A stretch of DNA of 64,000 bases from Escherichia coli phage AZ21, in sequence record LC788708.1. The stretch is one strand, 5' to 3'. Of the stretch, positions 7,078 to 36,584 are shown one piece after another. Below the pieces are notes generated by a model. The model saw only the letters and a list, made by a program, of their open reading frames with translations. It had not been told where the DNA came from and made no database searches. Both the position numbers and the translations under genes were made by a program. Numbering within the stretch: position 1 is the stretch's first letter; every line of letters begins with the position of its first letter.

Positions 7078-7356
7078 ATGCGAATTTATAACTCAAATTC
7101 ATTAGGATTTAAACCATTGAGAAAACGTGCACAATCACCTCGTCAAATAAGAAAGGCTAATATTGGTGAGCCAGAGACACGCCTTCCACCTCCTCCAGAA
7201 CAACGTTTAGTTTATCTGGACGAAGAATTAGCTGAACGCGAAAGAAAAGCTCAAGAAGAGATTGAGCGTAAGAAAATGTGTACTGCTCCAGCGTATAATA
7301 AAGGGGCGTATCAATACGTCTCAGATGCCGAACAAGCTAAGATGGTTGGTAGATAA
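7078..7356 (+). CDS. hypothetical protein
   Basis: ORF behind promoter/RBS. Confidence 0.5.
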   Translation: MRIYNSNSLGFKPLRKRAQSPRQIRKANIGEPETRLPPPPEQRLVYLDEELAERERKAQEEIERKKMCTAPAYNKGAYQYVSDAEQAKMVGR

Positions 7357-7372
7357 TTTTTAAAAAATTCAT

Positions 7373-7401
7373 TTGCTAAACGCTTCAAATTCTCGTATAA
7401 T
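7373..7401 (+). promoter_or_regulatory. T5-type early promoter (A-tract, TTGCTA-17-TATAAT, CATAAATTG)
   Basis: Closely resembles PN25-type architecture. Confidence 0.7.
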
Positions 7402-7439
7402 ATACTTCATAAATTGATAAACAAAAAGGAAAACAAATA

Positions 7440-7955
7440 ATGGCTAAGCAGAAAAACGCAAAAACTCAAGCAGCTCCGGCAGTTAAAACTTTCCCGAAGA
7501 CTGAGGCTAATCGCAAAGCTCGGCTGGAACGTCACCTGCGTAAGCATCCTACAGATGCTCAGGCTGCGCAAGCACTGAATAATCCGGCTCCGATTCGTCA
7601 GAAGCCTAAAGCTAAAAATGCCACCCGTAAATCCTACAAAATGGTTATGTATGTAGAAAATTACGGCCACAAATCTGTCCCAGTTTCCCTGAGCTTTAAC
7701 GCTGGGGCTGAATTGTTCTCTCGTAATGGTATGTCTATGAAAGACTATGAGAAGGCAGTTAACCAGAAGCGTAAACCAACAGCAGATGTATTGCGCGATA
7801 CTCGTGGACAGTTTGGTTCTGTTAAGCCAAGTATCTTTGGCGTAGAGTATAGTAAAGATAATGTTCGTGCTCTGTGTTACGGTGTAGGTATTAAGTTCAC
7901 GGGTGATTCTGCTCGTAAATCTGCTAAACCAGCTCGCAAGCGTAAAGCGAAGTAA
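7440..7955 (+). CDS. basic Lys/Ala/Arg-rich protein, possible DNA-binding
   Basis: Highly basic low-complexity N and C termini. Confidence 0.5.
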   Translation: MAKQKNAKTQAAPAVKTFPKTEANRKARLERHLRKHPTDAQAAQALNNPAPIRQKPKAKNATRKSYKMVMYVENYGHKSVPVSLSFNAGAELFSRNGMSMKDYEKAVNQKRKPTADVLRDTRGQFGSVKPSIFGVEYSKDNVRALCYGVGIKFTGDSARKSAKPARKRKAK

Positions 7956-7964
7956 TAGATAAAT

Positions 7965-7980
7965 AGGGGCGAAAGCCCCT
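7965..7980 (+). terminator. GC hairpin AGGGGCGAAAGCCCCT (no U tract)
   Basis: Perfect 6-bp stem with GAAA loop; same hairpin recurs at 8244. Confidence 0.45.
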
Positions 7981-8019
7981 ACAATCGACTAATTCTCTAA
8001 CTAATCAAGGATATTTTTT

Positions 8020-8235
8020 ATGTTCTCTAAGAAACCACGTTCTGTTACTGAAATCGTTGCTTCCTTTACCACTATCACTGATGAGCTTCAAGCTCGTATT
8101 GAGGCTGATCAAAAAATCGCTGCTGATATTCAGAAACAGCAGGAAGAACTCGCTTTAAAGTTGGCTGAAACCAACAAGAGTGAAAAATCTGCCCAAACTA
8201 TTATGGAAAATATCCTTAAACTGCTGGGCAAGTGA
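8020..8235 (+). CDS. hypothetical coiled-coil protein
   Basis: ORF between two hairpins. Confidence 0.45.
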   Translation: MFSKKPRSVTEIVASFTTITDELQARIEADQKIAADIQKQQEELALKLAETNKSEKSAQTIMENILKLLGK

Positions 8236-9316: not shown

Positions 9317-9499
9317 ATGCCAGTATCTAAAAATGTTCGTAAAAATGGTAAGAAAGCTACTCGTAATCTGGGTATCCGTCGTATGGCTGAACGTCAATCA
9401 GGTATCCAGAAAATCTTTGATCTGCTAAATCGTGCTAATCCTAAAATTGATAACAGTAACGATACTGTTCTGCGCACCCTGCTGGCAATTGGTCTGTAA
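9317..9499 (+). CDS. small basic protein
   Basis: ORF behind promoter, AAAGGAAAAC RBS. Confidence 0.45.
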   Translation: MPVSKNVRKNGKKATRNLGIRRMAERQSGIQKIFDLLNRANPKIDNSNDTVLRTLLAIGL

Positions 9500-9552
9500 T
9501 AGACCAAATTTAAACAAATTCAAATCTCAAACTTCATATAAGGAAGCAAATA

Positions 9553-10191
9553 ATGACTACTCGTATCTCTAAAACTCGCGCTCTGGCAACTATCAAATCT
9601 CTGGAAGCTAAAATCCGTAAAGCTACTGAACAACAGCTTCTGATCGCTGTTGGTGAAGGTAAGGATAAAAACCAGGTTGTAGTTGGCGCTGCAATCGAAG
9701 TAGATGCCCTGTCTACTCGTATTAAAACTGATTTCCAATCTCTGCTGGATATGATGTCTCAGCGTGATCGTATTAAATCTGCTCTGATTAAGAGCAATGC
9801 AGAAACAATCGTTGAGATTGGTTCTCGTAAGATGACTGTTGCGGAAGCAATTGAAGCTAAGCGTTCTATGGAGCTTAAAGCTCAGCTGCTGGCTAACATG
9901 CGTAAGCAGTTCCATGCCGCTACGATTAAGTTTAATACGCAGAAAGCACAGTTTGATGCTAAATATGAGCGTTTGCAGGATAGCATGGCTACCCGCGATA
10001 AGAAAACTTCCGAAGATGAAGTTAAAATGCAGCTCAATCTGCTGGAACTCAAGAATACTCCATTCTTGATTGATCCGCTGGAACTGGAGAAGCTGATTAA
10101 GCAGCATGACGAGGAATACCAGGACTTTGCAACAAATGTTGACTTTGTTCTATCCGAGTCTAACGCCTCTACCTTCATTGAAGTAGAGTAA
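9553..10191 (+). CDS. coiled-coil protein
   Basis: High codon regularity; antisense ORFs rejected. Confidence 0.55.
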   Translation: MTTRISKTRALATIKSLEAKIRKATEQQLLIAVGEGKDKNQVVVGAAIEVDALSTRIKTDFQSLLDMMSQRDRIKSALIKSNAETIVEIGSRKMTVAEAIEAKRSMELKAQLLANMRKQFHAATIKFNTQKAQFDAKYERLQDSMATRDKKTSEDEVKMQLNLLELKNTPFLIDPLELEKLIKQHDEEYQDFATNVDFVLSESNASTFIEVE

Positions 10192-32884: not shown

Positions 32885-33774
32885 TGGGATTTTATAGTAA
32901 TAGAAAACCAAAAGGTGTAACTGGTAAATTCGCAGTTGAAGAAAGACCTTTTCCACCGGTCGATGTAGAGAAACTACGTGAACTTCTAGAAATGCTAGAA
33001 GGTTGCCATGAACGTTGTTATTCTGAACTCTCTTTAAATGAGAAACGTGTTGTTGAGATGTTCTGTATTCGTTCAGCTAGAACAGCTAAAGGTACTTCTC
33101 CAAAAGATGAAGTAAAAGAGTACAGAGTTCTAGTGATGCATGCTTGGGCACAACGTTTTGCAGTTCATTCGCTTCAGGAATGGTTTAATCTTCCAGCCTA
33201 TAAAGATTTTCATGTTTACGAAGATGAGGTTATGAATTATAATGAGTTGTATGGTTTGTCCTTCAAAAAGACAGGCTCACCGATGCATGATGCACTCAAT
33301 TCATTCCCTGATCATTACCTTCCAGTTCGTGAATATAGAGATCGTGAAGGAAATAAACCCTGCTTCACTATTTGGAATAAGTCTAAGACGATATCTGATC
33401 TAGATAATTATTGGTTTCGCACAAAAGAAGGATTCCTAGGAACAGAACCTTTACCTAAGGATCTCAAACCTATCCTTCCGCCTGCGAAACCTAAACATGA
33501 AGTAACGATTGCTATTAATAGAATAATTCTAGGAGCAGATGATCTTACTAAACAAATCGCCGCAGTTATCGCAGTTCTGTTTGACGGTACAAATTCTTCT
33601 GCACGTTATGAGAAGCTAACGGATAACAAATTGCAGATACCTAACGAGTTGTATGAGAGTTCGTGCAAGATCTATGATAACTTTAGTAAAGTAGATTACC
33701 CCGTGAGATCCATTAAAGAACTCATGGAGTATGCGGAGATGGGGATGAAAGGAAATCTCATGTTCGATGAATAA
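32884..33774 (+). CDS. hypothetical protein (last + strand ORF before repeat region)
   Basis: ORF. Confidence 0.5.
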   Translation: MGFYSNRKPKGVTGKFAVEERPFPPVDVEKLRELLEMLEGCHERCYSELSLNEKRVVEMFCIRSARTAKGTSPKDEVKEYRVLVMHAWAQRFAVHSLQEWFNLPAYKDFHVYEDEVMNYNELYGLSFKKTGSPMHDALNSFPDHYLPVREYRDREGNKPCFTIWNKSKTISDLDNYWFRTKEGFLGTEPLPKDLKPILPPAKPKHEVTIAINRIILGADDLTKQIAAVIAVLFDGTNSSARYEKLTDNKLQIPNELYESSCKIYDNFSKVDYPVRSIKELMEYAEMGMKGNLMFDE

Positions 33775-33781
33775 ACTCTAC

Positions 33782-33810
33782 TTGACGTTATGATTTCTGC
33801 ATGTTATAAT
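33782..33810 (+). promoter_or_regulatory. near-consensus sigma70 promoter TTGACG-17-TATAAT firing into non-coding repeat region
   Basis: No ORF for about 1.8 kb downstream. Confidence 0.55.
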
Positions 33811-34138
33811 AACTCTATGAAATAACATAGAATAAAGAGATCCACCCGGATACGGATGGTGGATGGGAAACTTCTATTTCCCCCGTAGCTTGTCGGAGGG
33901 CTAGGGAAATCTTAAGAAGTTTTGTACCATCTCACGCAATTCGTATCCCAGGGGTGGAGCATCTCTTCCAATCTTTGGGGATCTTATACTTAAATTAAAG
34001 GTAAAACTTTTGGTCACATAATTTACATTCAAGATGATACACTGGTTGCCGCCATTCTTCCTAGGATGGCACAACACTTTCTTCTAGACTCCTAAGTTTC
34101 TAGGAATACTAACTCTAGAGTTTACACTAAACTTTGAA

Positions 34139-34876
34139 TCGGATTCGCACATGCTCTAGGGCAGTTTTTCATCTACTATAAATATCCTAGGCCGGTTTTC
34201 CTATACAGGGCGGTTATGGGGAGGGCGGTTATTTCTAGACAATAAAATTTACTCTTGTCAGTCCAGAAATTACTGTCGGATTTGCACATTGTGTTTCTAG
34301 AAATTTATGGTCGGATTTGCACAATTGCCTAAGTTTTTAGGAACATATAATCTCCTGAAAATGGCAGCATTATTTCGGGCCGAAGGCCCATGATTGCCTG
34401 AGTTTTTTTAGAGACACAGAAATTTTCACTTGTCAAGCTATTTTGCCCCATTTTGCTAATAAAATTTTACTTTATCTCCCCTAATCTCAAATTAACCCAA
34501 ATCTTCTCAACTCTTCTCCAAAATCCCCGCAAATCAGGTGCTCCGCACCAAACATGCGCCCCTCCCGTAGTTCCCCCAAGTTTCTCTCGATCTCTCAACT
34601 TCTCCCCAAACTCATACAATCACACACCCTCCAATCGAAGTCACAAAAATCTTGTCGGATTCGCACAAATAAACCCATGTCGGATTTGCACATATTCTAG
34701 TTAATTCCACAGGATTGATGCGCAGCATCGGATTGCTGGAGTTTTTGGGAGAATTCATTGTCGGATTCGCACACTATAAAAATTTTTCGGGTCGGATTTG
34801 CACACTACCAAAAATTGTCGGATTCGCACATACACGCCCACGCGTAATCCATGGGGGCAAATGTCGGATTTGCACA
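34139..34876 (+). repeat. nine dispersed copies of 15-bp motif TGTCGGATT(T/C)GCACA
   Basis: Copies at 34139, 34274, 34309, 34653, 34678, 34759, 34789, 34816, 34862, all same orientation. Confidence 0.8.
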
Positions 34877-34903
34877 AAAGCGCAGGGCAATTGCCCTGCT
34901 TGC

Positions 34904-35078
34904 CTGAATGCGAATGATAATGAGAATCATTTGCATTTAAAAAGCGGAATGAGAATGATAATAATTCGCATTTAAGAATGGAAGTGAGAATTATTCAGGA
35001 AGTGAAACGATTCTCATTTAAAAAGTGAAACGATTCTCATTTAGAAAGTGAAACGCGAATGATAATGATTCGTATTTA
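34904..35078. promoter_or_regulatory. array of Fur-box-like AT-rich palindromes (GAATGATAATGAGAATCATT family)
   Basis: At least five overlapping units, incl. tandem AAGTGAAACGATTCTCATTTA x2; related copies at 35413, 35805, 39463. Confidence 0.5.
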
Positions 35079-35290
35079 AGAATGGAAGTGAGAAACACTA
35101 TTATTTAAGTTATCCACAGACTTATCAACAGCACGATTTGACTTGACAGAATCCTAGCCATTTTGAGGCGTTATCAACAGACTTATCAACAGCTTATCCT
35201 ACTGTATAAATATACAGTATTCCTATGCAGTGAATAATTCTAATATACAGCTAAAACGCTCTCAAACGCATTCTAACGCGTTTAATTTTG
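35076..35290. repeat. left arm of about 215-bp imperfect inverted repeat (contains DnaA boxes TTATCCACA / TTATCAACA)
   Basis: Hand alignment with reverse complement of 39121-39336 (shared AAGTGAGAARCACTATYATTTAAGTTATCCACA, CAGACTTATC, ACTGTATAAATATACAG, AAACGCATTCTAACG). Confidence 0.75.
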
Positions 35291-35585
35291 GTGGGGATAC
35301 TAAAACAAGGGCAAAATTGGAGGAGGCTTGAAAATTAGTTAGCTCGCTAATGATCACACACGGCGACACGTAACACCCTAACCATTAGCAGGCTAACCAT
35401 CGCGGGCGTGGTCAAATGAGAATGATTCTCATTTGTGGATTGGGGGCGCTTCCTGATAGTTGCGCCCCGTGATTATTATAGTAGGGGGCAACCGTTACGC
35501 TTTGCCCACTCCCGCCACTCATCTTGGTGCCTAGACTTGCGACGGCGTACTAAAAACCGCTTGTACCAGTGATTAAACCATCGTT

Positions 35586-35789
35586 TCATAAATCCTCCTC
35601 CGGTAGTCGATGCGTGATCTTTTCCTCCTCCCCATAGGAATCCACCAAATACTGATAATAACCATCGTGATCATAAATCACTTTATCATATTCCCCACGC
35701 TCGACCGCTTGCCGATTTTCCAACGTATCAGGCACAAAGAAAGTATCAACGGTAACAGTAGTTTTAGTTACAACAATTTTATCACTCAT
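35586..35789 (-). CDS. small acidic protein
   Basis: Fur-like palindrome overlaps its upstream region. Confidence 0.45.
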   Translation of the reverse strand: MSDKIVVTKTTVTVDTFFVPDTLENRQAVERGEYDKVIYDHDGYYQYLVDSYGEEEKITHRLPEEDL

Positions 35790-35915
35790 AATGCCATCGC
35801 CCCTAGAATGAGAATGATTATCAATATCATTGTGAAGCCATTACCAAATCGTAAACGCTGGGAATGTTTCCCAGCGGTATTATTAGACTTATGGCTTTGT
35901 GTTTTTCGCCACCAG

Positions 35916-36116
35916 CTATTCACGGTAGACGCTCCATCCGTCTAGCTTCCATTCTTCCCCCTTGCGAATATTGAAAAACCAATCATTAAAATTGTAACCA
36001 TCTTCTGACATGATCACGCCGTTTTCTTTCATGTACAAAAATTCATCACTAGTAAAATATTGATTACTAACTTTAAAACCTTGTTTCATTTTTTCTAGTG
36101 CTTCATCTTTAGTCAT
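35916..36116 (-). CDS. small hypothetical protein
   Basis: Start overlaps upstream stop (ATGA). Confidence 0.45.
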   Translation of the reverse strand: MTKDEALEKMKQGFKVSNQYFTSDEFLYMKENGVIMSEDGYNFNDWFFNIRKGEEWKLDGWSVYRE

Positions 36117-36457
36117 TGCGCCACCTTTCGAAACGCTGTTTCAATACTATCCGCAGTGGATTGAATATATGCGCCTTTGAGTATCAGCCGCTCGGTGCAT
36201 ATCTTGCGAAAAATATTAATAAAATCGTCCTCATTTTCTGCGATTAATGCCTCACCCATAACCTGAACGTCGCAAGATGCAAAGGTCAAAAATTGAAACG
36301 CTAGTTCACGGGCAACGACCGCATTGATTTTATAATGCGCCTTGCCTTCATAGATATTAATAACGCCCTTATAAGCTGGCGAAAGCTGATTTAAGTAGTT
36401 TGCTAATAATGCCGGACGGCAATTAGCAACAAAACGATTGCCCTCATAAATAACCAT
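36113..36457 (-). CDS. hypothetical protein
   Basis: GGGAG RBS. Confidence 0.5.
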   Translation of the reverse strand: MVIYEGNRFVANCRPALLANYLNQLSPAYKGVINIYEGKAHYKINAVVARELAFQFLTFASCDVQVMGEALIAENEDDFINIFRKICTERLILKGAYIQSTADSIETAFRKVAQ

Positions 36458-36584
36458 TTGATAGTCTCCCGATTAGATAGCCAGATAATAACATAAAGAT
36501 CCCCAATAAAAGAGGATCATTCTTAAATAAGGTGGCGGTAAAACCGCCAACCATTGCAAGGAGAATAACAATAATGCTTTTCAT
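36446..36584 (-). CDS. small membrane protein (about 46 aa, below track cutoff)
   Basis: Hydrophobic MKSIIVILLAMVGGFTATLF; stop overlaps next start. Confidence 0.3.

What the first reader, a model, noticed from the sequence alone, without database searches (positions are those of the whole stretch)
34904..35435. Cluster of Fur-box-like AT-rich palindromes, including a perfect 21-bp palindrome AAATGAGAATGATTCTCATTT
The units GAATGATAATGAGAATCATT, GAATGAGAATGATAATAATTCGCATT, a tandem AAGTGAAACGATTCTCATTTA x2 and GAATGATAATGATTCG at 34904-35078 resemble the E. coli Fur box (GATAATGATAATCATTATC). There is also the perfect palindrome at 35415-35435. Related copies sit upstream of the last cassette gene (35805-35834) and at 39463-39482. 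Such density suggests an operator array or titration site for Fur or a Fur-like/phage repressor. Tequintavirus receptors (FhuA, BtuB, FepA) are iron- or cobalamin-regulated, so an iron-sensing link would be biologically coherent.
Basis: inference. Interest (0 to 1): 0.6.

Follow-up and report, generated by a model that had tools for sequence, protein, structure and literature searches.

The report
Fur-box array in T5 injection-stop region
The AT-rich palindromes are real, conserved look-alikes of the bacterial iron-repressor (Fur) binding site, and they lie in the non-coding "injection stop signal" of a T5-like phage, so a 50-year-old puzzle (why T5 DNA entry pauses) gains a testable host-protein candidate.

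Summary
The window is Escherichia phage AZ23, a Tequintavirus. Positions 34904-35435 are the known untranslated "Repeat Region 3" / injection-stop-signal (iss) region at the inner edge of the terminal repeat.

I trained a Fur matrix on 15 E. coli K-12 Fur-regulated promoters. It scores phage sites at 21.4, 18.9, 16.8 and 23.1 bits, as high as the best host Fur boxes.
- None of 2000 dinucleotide shuffles reached these scores.
- Only 0.02% of column-permuted matrices did.
- The rest of the 64-kb window is at chance level.

The sites show the Fur hexamer layout F-F-x-R and overlap at 6-bp steps. All 29 T5-like contigs examined keep them, as 54 distinct variants, and so does a distant relative.

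The phage palindrome AATGAGAATNATTCTCATT recurs in bacterial genomes directly upstream of fur, fecI-type and TonB-receptor genes (P = 6e-11).

The main array has no gene downstream, so it is not an ordinary operator, and titration of Fur is implausible. It sits beside DnaA-box pairs and a near-consensus LexA box.

Best reading: a landing pad for pre-existing host proteins at the boundary where first-step DNA transfer stops. Fur binding itself is untested, and the phage DNA-binding protein A2 remains a rival ligand. No paper I could search links the iss to Fur.

The parts
34910..34940 (.). Fur-like unit a1. Overlapping 19-mers at 34910, 34916 and 34922. The best is GATAATGAGAATCATTTGC at 34916-34934.
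   Evidence: 12.6, 21.4 and 11.2 bits. 16/19 match to GATAATGATAATCATTATC. Conserved position in all T5-like loci.
34951..34975 (.). Fur-like unit a2, 35 bp after a1. GAGAATGATAATAATTCGC at 34951 and an overlapping site at 34957.
   Evidence: 18.9 and 13.4 bits. Part of a 35-bp-period repeat at 34912-34991.
35000..35045 (+). 23-bp tandem repeat AAGTGAAACGATTCTCATTTAAA (x2). It carries only Fur-type half-sites, ATTCTCATTT, at 35010 and 35033.
   Evidence: No Fur-matrix hit of 10 bits or more here.
35055..35079 (.). Fur-like unit a3: GCGAATGATAATGATTCGT plus an overlapping site at 35061.
   Evidence: 13.9 and 13.4 bits. The homologous unit scores 13-20 bits in relatives.
35414..35434 (.). Palindrome AAATGAGAAT-G-ATTCTCATTT, containing TGAGAATnATTCTCA. 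Compare the Fur 7-1-7 motif TGATAATnATTATCA.
   Evidence: 14.4 and 16.8 bits. Present in about 17 of 29 relatives and absent from T5 itself. The same 19-mer lies upstream of fur, fecI-type and TonB-receptor genes in bacteria.
35804..35834 (.). Three overlapping Fur-like sites 15-45 nt upstream of the start codon (35789) of the last pre-early ORF (35586-35789, minus strand).
   Evidence: 17.9, 23.1 and 14.7 bits, the strongest in the window. Found upstream of the homologous ORF only in L069 and L082 among relatives.
39462..39480 (.). Weak Fur-like site in the divergent pre-early promoter region.
   Evidence: 12.0 bits. About 1.5 sites of this strength are expected by chance in the terminal repeat.
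35110..35192 (+). Two DnaA-box pairs (TTATCCACA-GAC-TTATCAACA and TTATCAACA-GAC-TTATCAACA). These are IRC'/IRD' of the T5 iss.
   Evidence: Described for T5-like phages by Davison, bioRxiv 10.1101/866236.
35200..35219 (.). LexA/SOS-box look-alike TACTGTATAAATATACAGTA.
   Evidence: 19/20 match to the consensus. Only two AT-spacer CTGT-N8-ACAG sites occur in 64 kb, and both lie in the terminal repeat. Conserved in relatives.
34139..34877 (+). Nine direct repeats TCGGATTYGCACA (the DRD array of the iss), immediately left of the Fur-like array.
   Evidence: family D3..
34882..34899 (-). Terminator-like hairpin GCAGGGCAATTGCCCTGC followed by GCTTTTGTG. It would end leftward (pre-early direction) transcription just after the Fur-like array.

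Best explanation
The finding is a conserved array of genuine Fur-box-type sequences inside the non-coding injection-stop-signal (iss) region of a T5-like phage (Repeat Region 3 at the inner edge of the terminal repeat).

What is shown:
- The sequences match the E. coli Fur operator as well as the best host sites do.
- They have Fur's F-F-x-R hexamer architecture, with overlapping sites 6 bp apart.
- They are conserved across T5-like phages.
- They are identical to sequences found upstream of iron genes in bacteria.

What is inferred: the ligand is host Fur, an abundant protein already present when the DNA enters. The array is not a gene operator, because no gene lies downstream. Together with the adjacent DnaA-box pairs and LexA box, it would form a host-protein nucleoprotein complex on the last stretch of first-step-transfer DNA. 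That complex would help to hold or pause the DNA at the membrane, or act as a roadblock that stops RNA polymerase from reading (and reeling) into DNA that has not yet been injected, until phage proteins A1/A2 release it. Fur occupancy would make this step sensitive to the cell's iron status.

My confidence differs by part: about 0.8 that these sites bind Fur in vitro, and about 0.35 that Fur binding matters for the pause. The overall figure of 0.45 covers the whole statement.
For: 1. Identity and location. The window is 100% identical to phage AZ23. It maps to T5 about 9540-9720, inside the iss region, and the estimated shear point of first-step DNA is 9618.

2. Matrix trained only on K-12 promoters. 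Phage sites score 21.4, 18.9, 16.8 and 23.1 bits. Known promoters score 7-22 bits under leave-one-out. There were 0 sites of at least 14 bits in 72 kb of non-promoter E. coli DNA.

3. Controls. 0 of 2000 shuffles reached the observed counts. Only 0.02% of column-permuted matrices reached the maximum. 11 of 12 sites of at least 14 bits in the window fall in the terminal repeat.

4. Architecture. 201 distinct units give the consensus nnnAAT-GAKAAT-S-ATTCKC-ATTT, and the left half was not used to find them. Hits come in 6-bp steps, the signature of Fur clusters described in PMC2189734.

5. Conservation.
- 29/29 T5-like contigs carry 1-6 sites of at least 15 bits right of the DRD array.
- There are 54 distinct 19-mers, and all keep the layout.
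- The motif is retained where A1 is 65% and A2 57% identical.
- It is also retained in L337 (A1 34%, A2 32%), together with DnaA clusters and a LexA box.

6. Bacterial genomes. The palindrome is found in at least 120 loci. In 25 of them the 5' end of a fecI-type, fur, TonB-receptor or ybiX gene is within 600 bp, and the motif is upstream in 26 of 27 cases (P = 6e-11).

7. Need for a host factor. The stop occurs without protein synthesis, and injection is complete in vitro with FhuA liposomes, so a pre-existing host factor is needed (Davison).
Against: - No binding data exist. Everything rests on sequence.
- The array co-occurs phyletically with A2: A2 is present in all loci that have boxes, and both are absent from 17 A1-only relatives. 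A2 could therefore be the true ligand.
- The phage motif systematically prefers GAGAAT/ATTCKC over GATAAT/ATTATC and keeps a conserved A-rich spacer. This could reflect a different specificity.
- T5 itself lacks the perfect palindrome segment.
- How a cytoplasmic protein bound to DNA already inside the cell would stop further entry is not obvious.
- T5 adsorbs via FhuA, which is most abundant in iron-starved cells, where Fur is mostly off DNA.
- Older literature (Heusterspreute 1987; Davison 2015) could not be read, so prior mention of Fur cannot be excluded.
Confidence: 0.45

Rival explanations
1. The repeats are binding sites for the phage's own dimeric DNA-binding protein A2 (with A1), which is needed to restart DNA transfer. 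The likeness to Fur boxes is convergent or incidental.
For: A2 is a DNA-binding dimer essential for second-step transfer and belongs to phrog_1725 'DNA binding protein'. A2 homologs are found in all 40 loci L050-L089, which carry the boxes, and in L337 and L236. The 17 A1-only relatives lack both A2 and the boxes. Palindromes suit a dimer. The A2 model is all-helical, with weak likeness to three-helix HTH/Myb/homeodomain folds. Conserved phage-specific features (GAGAAT, the CATTT flank, the A-rich spacer) are seen.
Against: The motif stays the same while A2 drops to 57% and 32% identity. The extra direct hexamer (F-F-x-R) and 6-bp overlapping sites are Fur hallmarks, not expected for a simple HTH dimer. 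The same palindrome serves as a Fur box in bacteria that have no A2. The stop itself needs no phage protein synthesis. The fold search gave no significant match (best E = 0.48).
Confidence: 0.25
2. The boxes are ordinary Fur operators that put phage promoters under iron control: for the last pre-early gene at 35789, or for an unannotated small RNA in the non-coding region.
For: The strongest site (35804-35834, 23.1 bits) sits 15-45 nt upstream of a start codon, after a terminator-like hairpin. A promoter-like site on the minus strand at 35265-35237 and a terminator at 34899-34882 could bracket a roughly 350-nt transcript across the array.
Against: The main array lies between convergent gene blocks with no ORF downstream. 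Promoter-like hits in the region are not significantly above shuffles (11 versus 6.5 +/- 2.8), and none lies at 35800-35850. There is no Rfam match. The 35804 site accompanies the homologous gene in only 2 relatives out of about 30.
Confidence: 0.1
3. The repeats are structural DNA only (bent, AT-rich, or secondary-structure-forming) or remnants of repeat expansion. The Fur likeness has no protein-binding consequence.
For: The region is a nest of repeats and palindromes whose functions are unknown. A-tract spacers and 23/35-bp periodicity occur. Counts are inflated because the units are copies of one another.
Against: Single sites score 21-23 bits, each improbable on its own (about 0.02 expected at 18 bits or more per 10 kb). 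The match is specific to the Fur column order. 54 sequence variants keep the Fur layout. The motif is retained in a very distant relative where the surrounding sequence is unrelated.
Confidence: 0.1
4. The array is a decoy that titrates Fur and so derepresses host iron-uptake genes, including the receptor.
For: High-scoring sites are clustered without a gene. T5-group receptors FhuA and FepA are Fur-regulated, and their promoters are in the training set.
Against: There are about 6-8 dimer sites per incoming genome, against thousands of Fur molecules per cell (own knowledge). T5 degrades host DNA and shuts off host expression within minutes, so derepression would have no target. Making more receptor on an already infected cell has no evident benefit.
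Confidence: 0.03

Closest known systems
Injection stop signal / Repeat Region 3 of phage T5 and relatives (Heusterspreute 1987; Wang 2005; Davison, bioRxiv 10.1101/866236)
   Same: It is the same locus: the untranslated region at the inner end of the terminal repeat, with nine DRD repeats, 60-66-bp DRE-type repeats, palindromes and paired DnaA boxes. It is conserved in all T5-like phages.
   Different: The published descriptions I could read call the DRE repeats and palindromes 'impossible to guess' in function. They name only DnaA (plus possibly IHF and Fis) as host partners. Fur and LexA are not mentioned.
Fur binding-site clusters at E. coli iron promoters (Chen et al. 2007, PMC2189734; e.g. 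fepA-fes, fhuF, ryhB; aerobactin iucA from my own knowledge)
   Same: The same 19-bp consensus, the same hexamer F-F-x-R layout, overlapping sites 6 bp apart, and scores equal to the best host sites.
   Different: The array does not overlap a recognisable promoter and has no downstream gene. It lies in a virulent phage. It prefers the GAGAAT/ATTCKC variant. Units are spaced 23-35 bp apart with A-rich spacers.
Gene-free clusters of regulator sites such as the E. coli datA locus or oriC DnaA-box arrays (own knowledge)
   Same: It works like them in being a cis-acting cluster of operator-type sites whose role is to load a protein complex, not to regulate a neighbouring gene. The array is adjacent to real DnaA-box clusters.
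   Different: A different protein is involved. Too few sites arrive with one genome to titrate Fur. The proposed role, control of DNA entry, is unproven.
Fur-regulated stx1 promoter of Shiga-toxin prophages (own knowledge, not checked here)
   Same: A Fur box carried on a phage genome of enterobacteria.
   Different: That is a single operator on a toxin promoter in a temperate phage. Here there is an array in non-coding DNA of a virulent phage, with no regulated gene.

Membership tests
Fur box (operator of enterobacterial Fur) | Match to the 19-bp consensus GATAATGATAATCATTATC or its matrix at the level of natural sites | tested here: met
   16/19, 15/19 and 17/19 matches. 21.4, 18.9, 16.8 and 23.1 bits, against 7-22 bits for known promoters under leave-one-out.
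Fur box (operator of enterobacterial Fur) | Score above composition-matched background and specific to the Fur column order | tested here: met
   0 of 2000 dinucleotide shuffles. 0.02% of 5000 column-permuted palindromic matrices. 0 sites of at least 14 bits in 72 kb of E. coli control DNA.
Fur box (operator of enterobacterial Fur) | Hexamer array F-F-x-R, with overlapping sites offset by 6 bp | tested here: met
   Hits at 34910/34916/34922, 34951/34957, 35055/35061, 35412/35418 and 35804/35810/35816. Unit consensus AAT-GAKAAT-S-ATTCKC-ATTT. 54 variants keep this layout.
Fur box (operator of enterobacterial Fur) | The same sequence is associated with iron-homeostasis genes in bacteria | tested here: met
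   AATGAGAATNATTCTCATT lies upstream of fecI-type, fur, TonB-receptor and ybiX genes in 25 of 120 bacterial loci, P = 6e-11. This is an association, not binding.
Fur box (operator of enterobacterial Fur) | Overlaps the promoter of a gene that it represses | tested here: not met
   The main array lies between convergent gene blocks with no ORF downstream. There is no significant promoter signal. Only the 35804-35834 copy is upstream of a gene, and it is not conserved there.
Fur box (operator of enterobacterial Fur) | Metal-dependent binding by Fur protein (EMSA, footprint, ChIP, FURTA) | not testable with these tools
   No experimental data were found in the searchable literature.
T5-group injection stop signal (Repeat Region 3) | Untranslated repeat region at the inner end of the terminal repeat, homologous to T5 about 9.2-10.4 kb | tested here: met
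   87% identity to T5 9317-10659. The LTR boundary is annotated in phage MM-1. 457 phage records match.
T5-group injection stop signal (Repeat Region 3) | Paired DnaA boxes 3 bp apart, the DRD direct-repeat array and DRE-type repeats | tested here: met
   DnaA pairs at 35110/35122 and 35171/35183. Nine DRD copies and a 62-nt repeat family.
T5-group injection stop signal (Repeat Region 3) | Cis-acting arrest of DNA transfer at about 8% of the genome | not testable with these tools
   Known for T5 and BF23 from the literature. Not shown for AZ23, nor assigned to any sub-element.
Regulator-titration (decoy) locus | Enough sites, times copy number, to lower the free regulator pool | tested here: inconclusive
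   About 6-8 dimer-sized sites per terminal repeat. The Fur pool of thousands per cell is from my own knowledge. Host DNA is destroyed early. The arithmetic argues against titration, but it was not measured.
LexA (SOS) box, noticed beside the array | CTGT-N8-ACAG with an AT-rich spacer, close to TACTGTATATATATACAGTA | tested here: met
   35200-35219 matches 19/20 and 39196-39215 matches 16/20. No other AT-spacer site occurs in 64 kb. Conserved in relatives, in L337 and in L257. Binding was not tested.

The most novel reading that the evidence does not exclude
The T5 injection stop signal is a composite landing pad for three pre-existing host global DNA-binding proteins: DnaA, LexA and Fur. Their joint binding to the last-entered DNA creates the pause, or blocks polymerase-driven entry, and A1/A2 must undo it. 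The length of the pause, and so the timing of infection, would then read out the host's iron, SOS and replication state.
Probability: 0.2. Interest if true: 0.85.

Novelty: new variant of a known kind. Interest (0 to 1): 0.62.

Why it matters
Why T5 DNA entry stops after 8% of the genome, and how it restarts, has been open since the 1960s. Recent papers still describe the stop signal only as "repeats, palindromes and DnaA boxes" with no functional tests.

Showing that its most conserved repeats are high-scoring Fur boxes, next to a LexA box, names concrete host proteins and gives simple experiments:
- Fur gel shifts.
- Infection of fur, lexA and dnaA mutant hosts.
- Iron chelation.
- Box-mutant phage.

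If Fur binds, this would be an operator-type array used for DNA-entry control rather than gene regulation, and a link between iron status and infection by phages that enter through iron-regulated receptors. If Fur does not bind, the same sequences define the likely recognition site of A2.

Tried and rejected
- Rfam search of 33500-36500: nothing relevant.
- Promoter and terminator scan: promoter-like hits are not above shuffles. Only hairpins are of note.
- Distant A1 relatives L090-L106 (37-49% identity): no non-coding Fur-like clusters. The apparent cluster in L095 lies inside a 600-aa ORF.
- Fur-matrix hits at 44725/44731 (19.4 and 18.0 bits): inside the dmp coding sequence (DDDNDYQ) and conserved as coding, so I set them aside as a codon coincidence. 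The hits at 37673 and 43425 are likewise coding.
- A2 as a Fur-like protein: rejected. There is no PDB sequence match. The single-sequence AlphaFold model is all-helical (pLDDT 76) with no significant fold match (best E = 0.48). This neither supports nor excludes sequence-specific binding.
- Titration and decoy readings: rejected on site number and on early host DNA destruction.
- Linking the 35804 site to its downstream gene: the gene (phrog_6973) is widespread, but the site accompanies it in only 2 relatives.
- Literature: Davison 2015 (PMC4743489) and Heusterspreute 1987 are not held. Searches for Tequintavirus + Fur box, T5 + LexA and T5 + fur mutant found nothing relevant.
- Exact assignment of my units to the published names DRE1, DRE2 and DRB is uncertain, because the figures are not held.

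Full report
**What the window is.** Positions 34400-35900 are 100% identical to Escherichia coli phage AZ23 (LC788707.1, Tequintavirus). They match 457 phage records, almost all T5-like phages of Escherichia and Salmonella. The window runs opposite to the usual T5 orientation.
- Annotation of a relative (MM-1) places the inner boundary of the long terminal repeat near window 34411.
- AZ23 has no annotated gene between 33774 and 35586.
- A blastn alignment maps window 33977-35311 onto T5 10659-9317 at 87% identity.

The finding therefore lies in the untranslated "Repeat Region 3" of the T5 terminal repeat. This region is thought to hold the injection stop signal (iss), where first-step DNA transfer halts at about 7.9% of the genome (Davison, bioRxiv 10.1101/866236). 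In T5 coordinates the Fur-like array is about 9540-9720. The calculated shear point of first-step DNA is 9618.

**Gene context.**
- A1 is at 41602-43272(+), A2 at 40819-41226(+) and dmp at 44077-44853(+).
- A minus-strand pre-early block runs from 38929 down to 35586.
- Plus-strand early genes end at 33774.
- The non-coding stretch 33775-35585 is therefore a zone of convergent transcription.

**Checking the observation.** All quoted units are present.
- a 35-bp-period repeat at 34912-34991;
- a 23-bp tandem at 35000-35055;
- a 62-nt repeat family;
- nine copies of TCGGATTYGCACA to the left.

**Testing the Fur likeness.** I fetched 15 well-established Fur-regulated promoter regions from E. coli K-12 MG1655: fepA-fes, fepD-entS, fepB-entC, fhuA, fur, fiu, fhuE, tonB, cirA, exbB, ryhB, sodA, fecA, fecI and fhuF. 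From these I built a palindromic 19-column matrix by iteration seeded with the consensus. It converged on GATAATGATAATCATTATC. Leave-one-out scores of the known promoters range from 7 to 22 bits.

Scanned over the window, the matrix gives:

| Position | Score (bits) |
|---|---|
| 34916 | 21.4 |
| 34951 | 18.9 |
| 35055 | 13.9 |
| 35412 / 35418 | 14.4 / 16.8 |
| 35804 / 35810 / 35816 | 17.9 / 23.1 / 14.7 |

- The 23-bp tandem does not score. It carries only half-sites.
- The copy at 39462 scores 12.0, which is marginal.
- In 72 kb of non-promoter E. coli DNA no site reaches 14 bits.

**Controls.**
- Dinucleotide-preserving shuffles of 34904-35435 give 0.04 sites of at least 14 bits against 3 observed (0 of 2000 shuffles) and a maximum of 8.7 +/- 2.6 against 21.4.
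- The terminal repeat as a whole has 11 such sites against 0.44 expected.
- The remaining 53 kb of the window is at expectation.
- Matrices with permuted columns, which keep AT-richness and palindromy, reach the observed maximum in 0.02% of 5000 trials.

Some terminal-repeat hits (37673, 43425, 44725/44731) lie in coding sequence. The last pair encodes DDDNDYQ of dmp. I set these aside as codon coincidences.

**Architecture.** Hits come in steps of exactly 6 bp (34910/34916/34922 and others). This is the signature reported for real Fur clusters (PMC2189734).

I collected 201 distinct units from 30 phages, anchoring on the right half-site only. The left half, which was not used for the search, recovers AAT-GAKAAT. 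The full unit reads nnnAAT-GAKAAT-S-ATTCKC-ATTT, the F-F-x-R(-R) hexamer layout of Fur operators. The dyad centre coincides with the centre of the 7-1-7 Fur motif: TGAGAATnATTCTCA against TGATAATnATTATCA (motif from my own knowledge of Baichoo and Helmann 2002). The ATTCTC variant also occurs in the K-12 sites of fepB-entC, ryhB, fhuA and exbB.

**Conservation.**
- All 29 IMG/VR contigs whose A1 protein is at least 65% identical carry 1-6 sites of at least 15 bits directly to the right of the DRD array.
- There are 54 different 19-mers of at least 13 bits, up to 17/19 identical to the Fur consensus.
- Two divergent phages (A1 65-67%, A2 57% identical) keep the same units although the arrangement differs.
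- The perfect palindrome is present in most relatives, but its segment is missing from T5 itself.
- Sixteen environmental A1 relatives (37-49% identical) have no such non-coding cluster. They also lack DnaA-box clusters, LexA boxes and a detectable A2.

**Independent evidence that the motif is a Fur box.** These include Massilia, Janthinobacterium, Ralstonia, Nitrosomonas, SAR86 and others. I ran tblastn with K-12 iron proteins against these loci:
- 25 loci have a FecI-type sigma factor, Fur, TonB-dependent receptor, FecR or YbiX gene whose 5' end is within 600 bp.
- The motif is upstream in 26 of 27 cases.
- 7.3 cases were expected from the positions of such genes in the same loci, giving P = 6e-11.

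The same search in viral contigs also hit the limit. Most hits are unrelated phages. Three are very distant T5-like contigs. In L337 (A1 34%, A2 32% identical):
- the non-coding region between divergent operons has ten consensus DnaA boxes and Fur-like sites of 22.0 and 19.5 bits;
- further Fur-like sites lie elsewhere in the contig;
- a LexA box is flanked by DnaA boxes.

The trio of host-type boxes is therefore a deep feature of this phage lineage.

**Neighbours of the array.** Immediately to the right are two DnaA-box pairs (35110-35192), already described for T5-like phages. Next comes TACTGTATAAATATACAGTA (35200-35219), 19/20 identical to the LexA consensus. A second copy (39196-39215) lies beside the inverted DnaA pairs. 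No other AT-spacer CTGT-N8-ACAG site occurs in 64 kb. A terminator-like hairpin on the minus strand (34899-34882) follows the array.

**Interpretation.** The array has no gene to regulate, so "operator" in the usual sense does not fit. Titration is implausible: there are few sites per incoming genome, Fur is very abundant (my own knowledge), and the host chromosome is destroyed within minutes.

The stop occurs without protein synthesis and does not occur in vitro with FhuA liposomes, so a pre-existing host factor is required. Davison proposed membrane-associated DnaA.

My best-supported reading extends that idea. The iss is a pad of operator-type sites for abundant host proteins (DnaA, LexA and, newly, Fur), placed on the last DNA to enter and where two transcription units converge. 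The complex could anchor or plug the DNA. Alternatively it could act as a roadblock that keeps RNA polymerase from pulling in more DNA (by analogy with T7 entry, my own knowledge). A1/A2 would then remodel it.

The parts that are shown are the sequence match, the architecture, the conservation and the context. Fur binding and any role in the pause are inference.

**The main rival.** A2, the dimeric DNA-binding protein needed for restart, may be the ligand.
- For: the boxes and A2 co-occur phyletically.
- Against: the motif is unchanged while A2 diverges to 32% identity, and the F-F-x-R layout is Fur-specific.
- A single-sequence model of A2 is all-helical and has no significant structural match, which decides nothing.

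**Prior knowledge.** None of the searchable papers on T5 or its relatives, up to mid-2026, mentions Fur or LexA at the iss. The DRE repeats are described as of unguessable function. Two older sources could not be read.

I therefore rate this as a new variant of a known kind: known Fur-box clusters, and a known phage locus, but a new identification and an unusual gene-free context. It is interesting because it makes an old question directly testable.

Noticed in passing
window 35200-35219 and 39196-39215: Two LexA/SOS-box look-alikes: TACTGTATAAATATACAGTA (19/20 to the consensus) and CCCTGTATATTTATACAGTG (16/20). Each lies next to a DnaA-box pair inside the inverted repeats of the pre-early region. 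They are conserved in nearly all T5-like loci and in the distant contigs L337 and L257. The T5 literature I could read does not mention them.
   Followed up: partly
window 35916-36116 (minus strand): This 66-aa pre-early ORF has a sub-threshold Pfam hit to the Tad2-like (Thoeris anti-defence 2) domain: E = 0.005, 17.8 bits against a cut-off of 25.
   Followed up: no
IMG/VR loci L227-L339, e.g. L292 1810-1888: The Fur-type palindrome AATGAGAATNATTCTCATT occurs in more than 110 viral contigs that are not T5-like, sometimes in tandem (three copies 30 bp apart in L292). Only 1 of 113 lies beside an iron gene. Fur boxes may be common in phage genomes.
   Followed up: partly
L337 (IMGVR_UViG_3300025008_000072) 7200-8200, 2100-2230, 10440-10580: A distant T5-like contig (A1 34%, A2 32% identical) has ten consensus DnaA boxes, several 17-22-bit Fur-like sites and a LexA box flanked by DnaA boxes. 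This is the same trio as in T5-like phages.
   Followed up: partly
L016, L018, L021, L035, L038 (IMG/VR): The DnaA-box pair TTATCCACAGACTTATCAACAG occurs verbatim in unrelated, high-GC viral contigs, directly after the end of a conserved ORF and before GGAAC-rich repeats. These may be replication origins.
   Followed up: no
window 34929-34942 versus E. coli K-12 tonB promoter (L008 3037-3050): There is a 14-nt identity, ATTTGCATTTAAAA, between Fur-like unit a1 and the Fur-site region of the tonB promoter. This is anecdotal and I did not assess its significance.
   Followed up: no
window 34139-34877: Nine direct repeats TGTCGGATTYGCACA (the DRD array) span the terminal-repeat boundary. Their ligand is unknown. 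They are present wherever the Fur-like array is present.
   Followed up: no
window 35000-35045: The 23-bp tandem contains GTGAAACGATTC. From memory this resembles half-operators of LacI-family repressors (GalR, Cra). I did not test this.
   Followed up: no
window 44725-44749: Strong Fur-matrix hits (19.4 and 18.0 bits) lie inside the dmp coding sequence (DDDNDYQ) near the genome end and are conserved in all relatives. In several relatives another 17.8-bit hit lies about 200 bp further on. I treated these as a codon coincidence.
   Followed up: partly
window 35312-35464 and 35792: Homology to most relatives breaks at 35792, the start codon of the last pre-early ORF. The 153-bp segment that holds the perfect palindrome is replaced by 38 bp in T5. 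These look like cassette-like variable junctions next to Fur-like boxes.
   Followed up: partly
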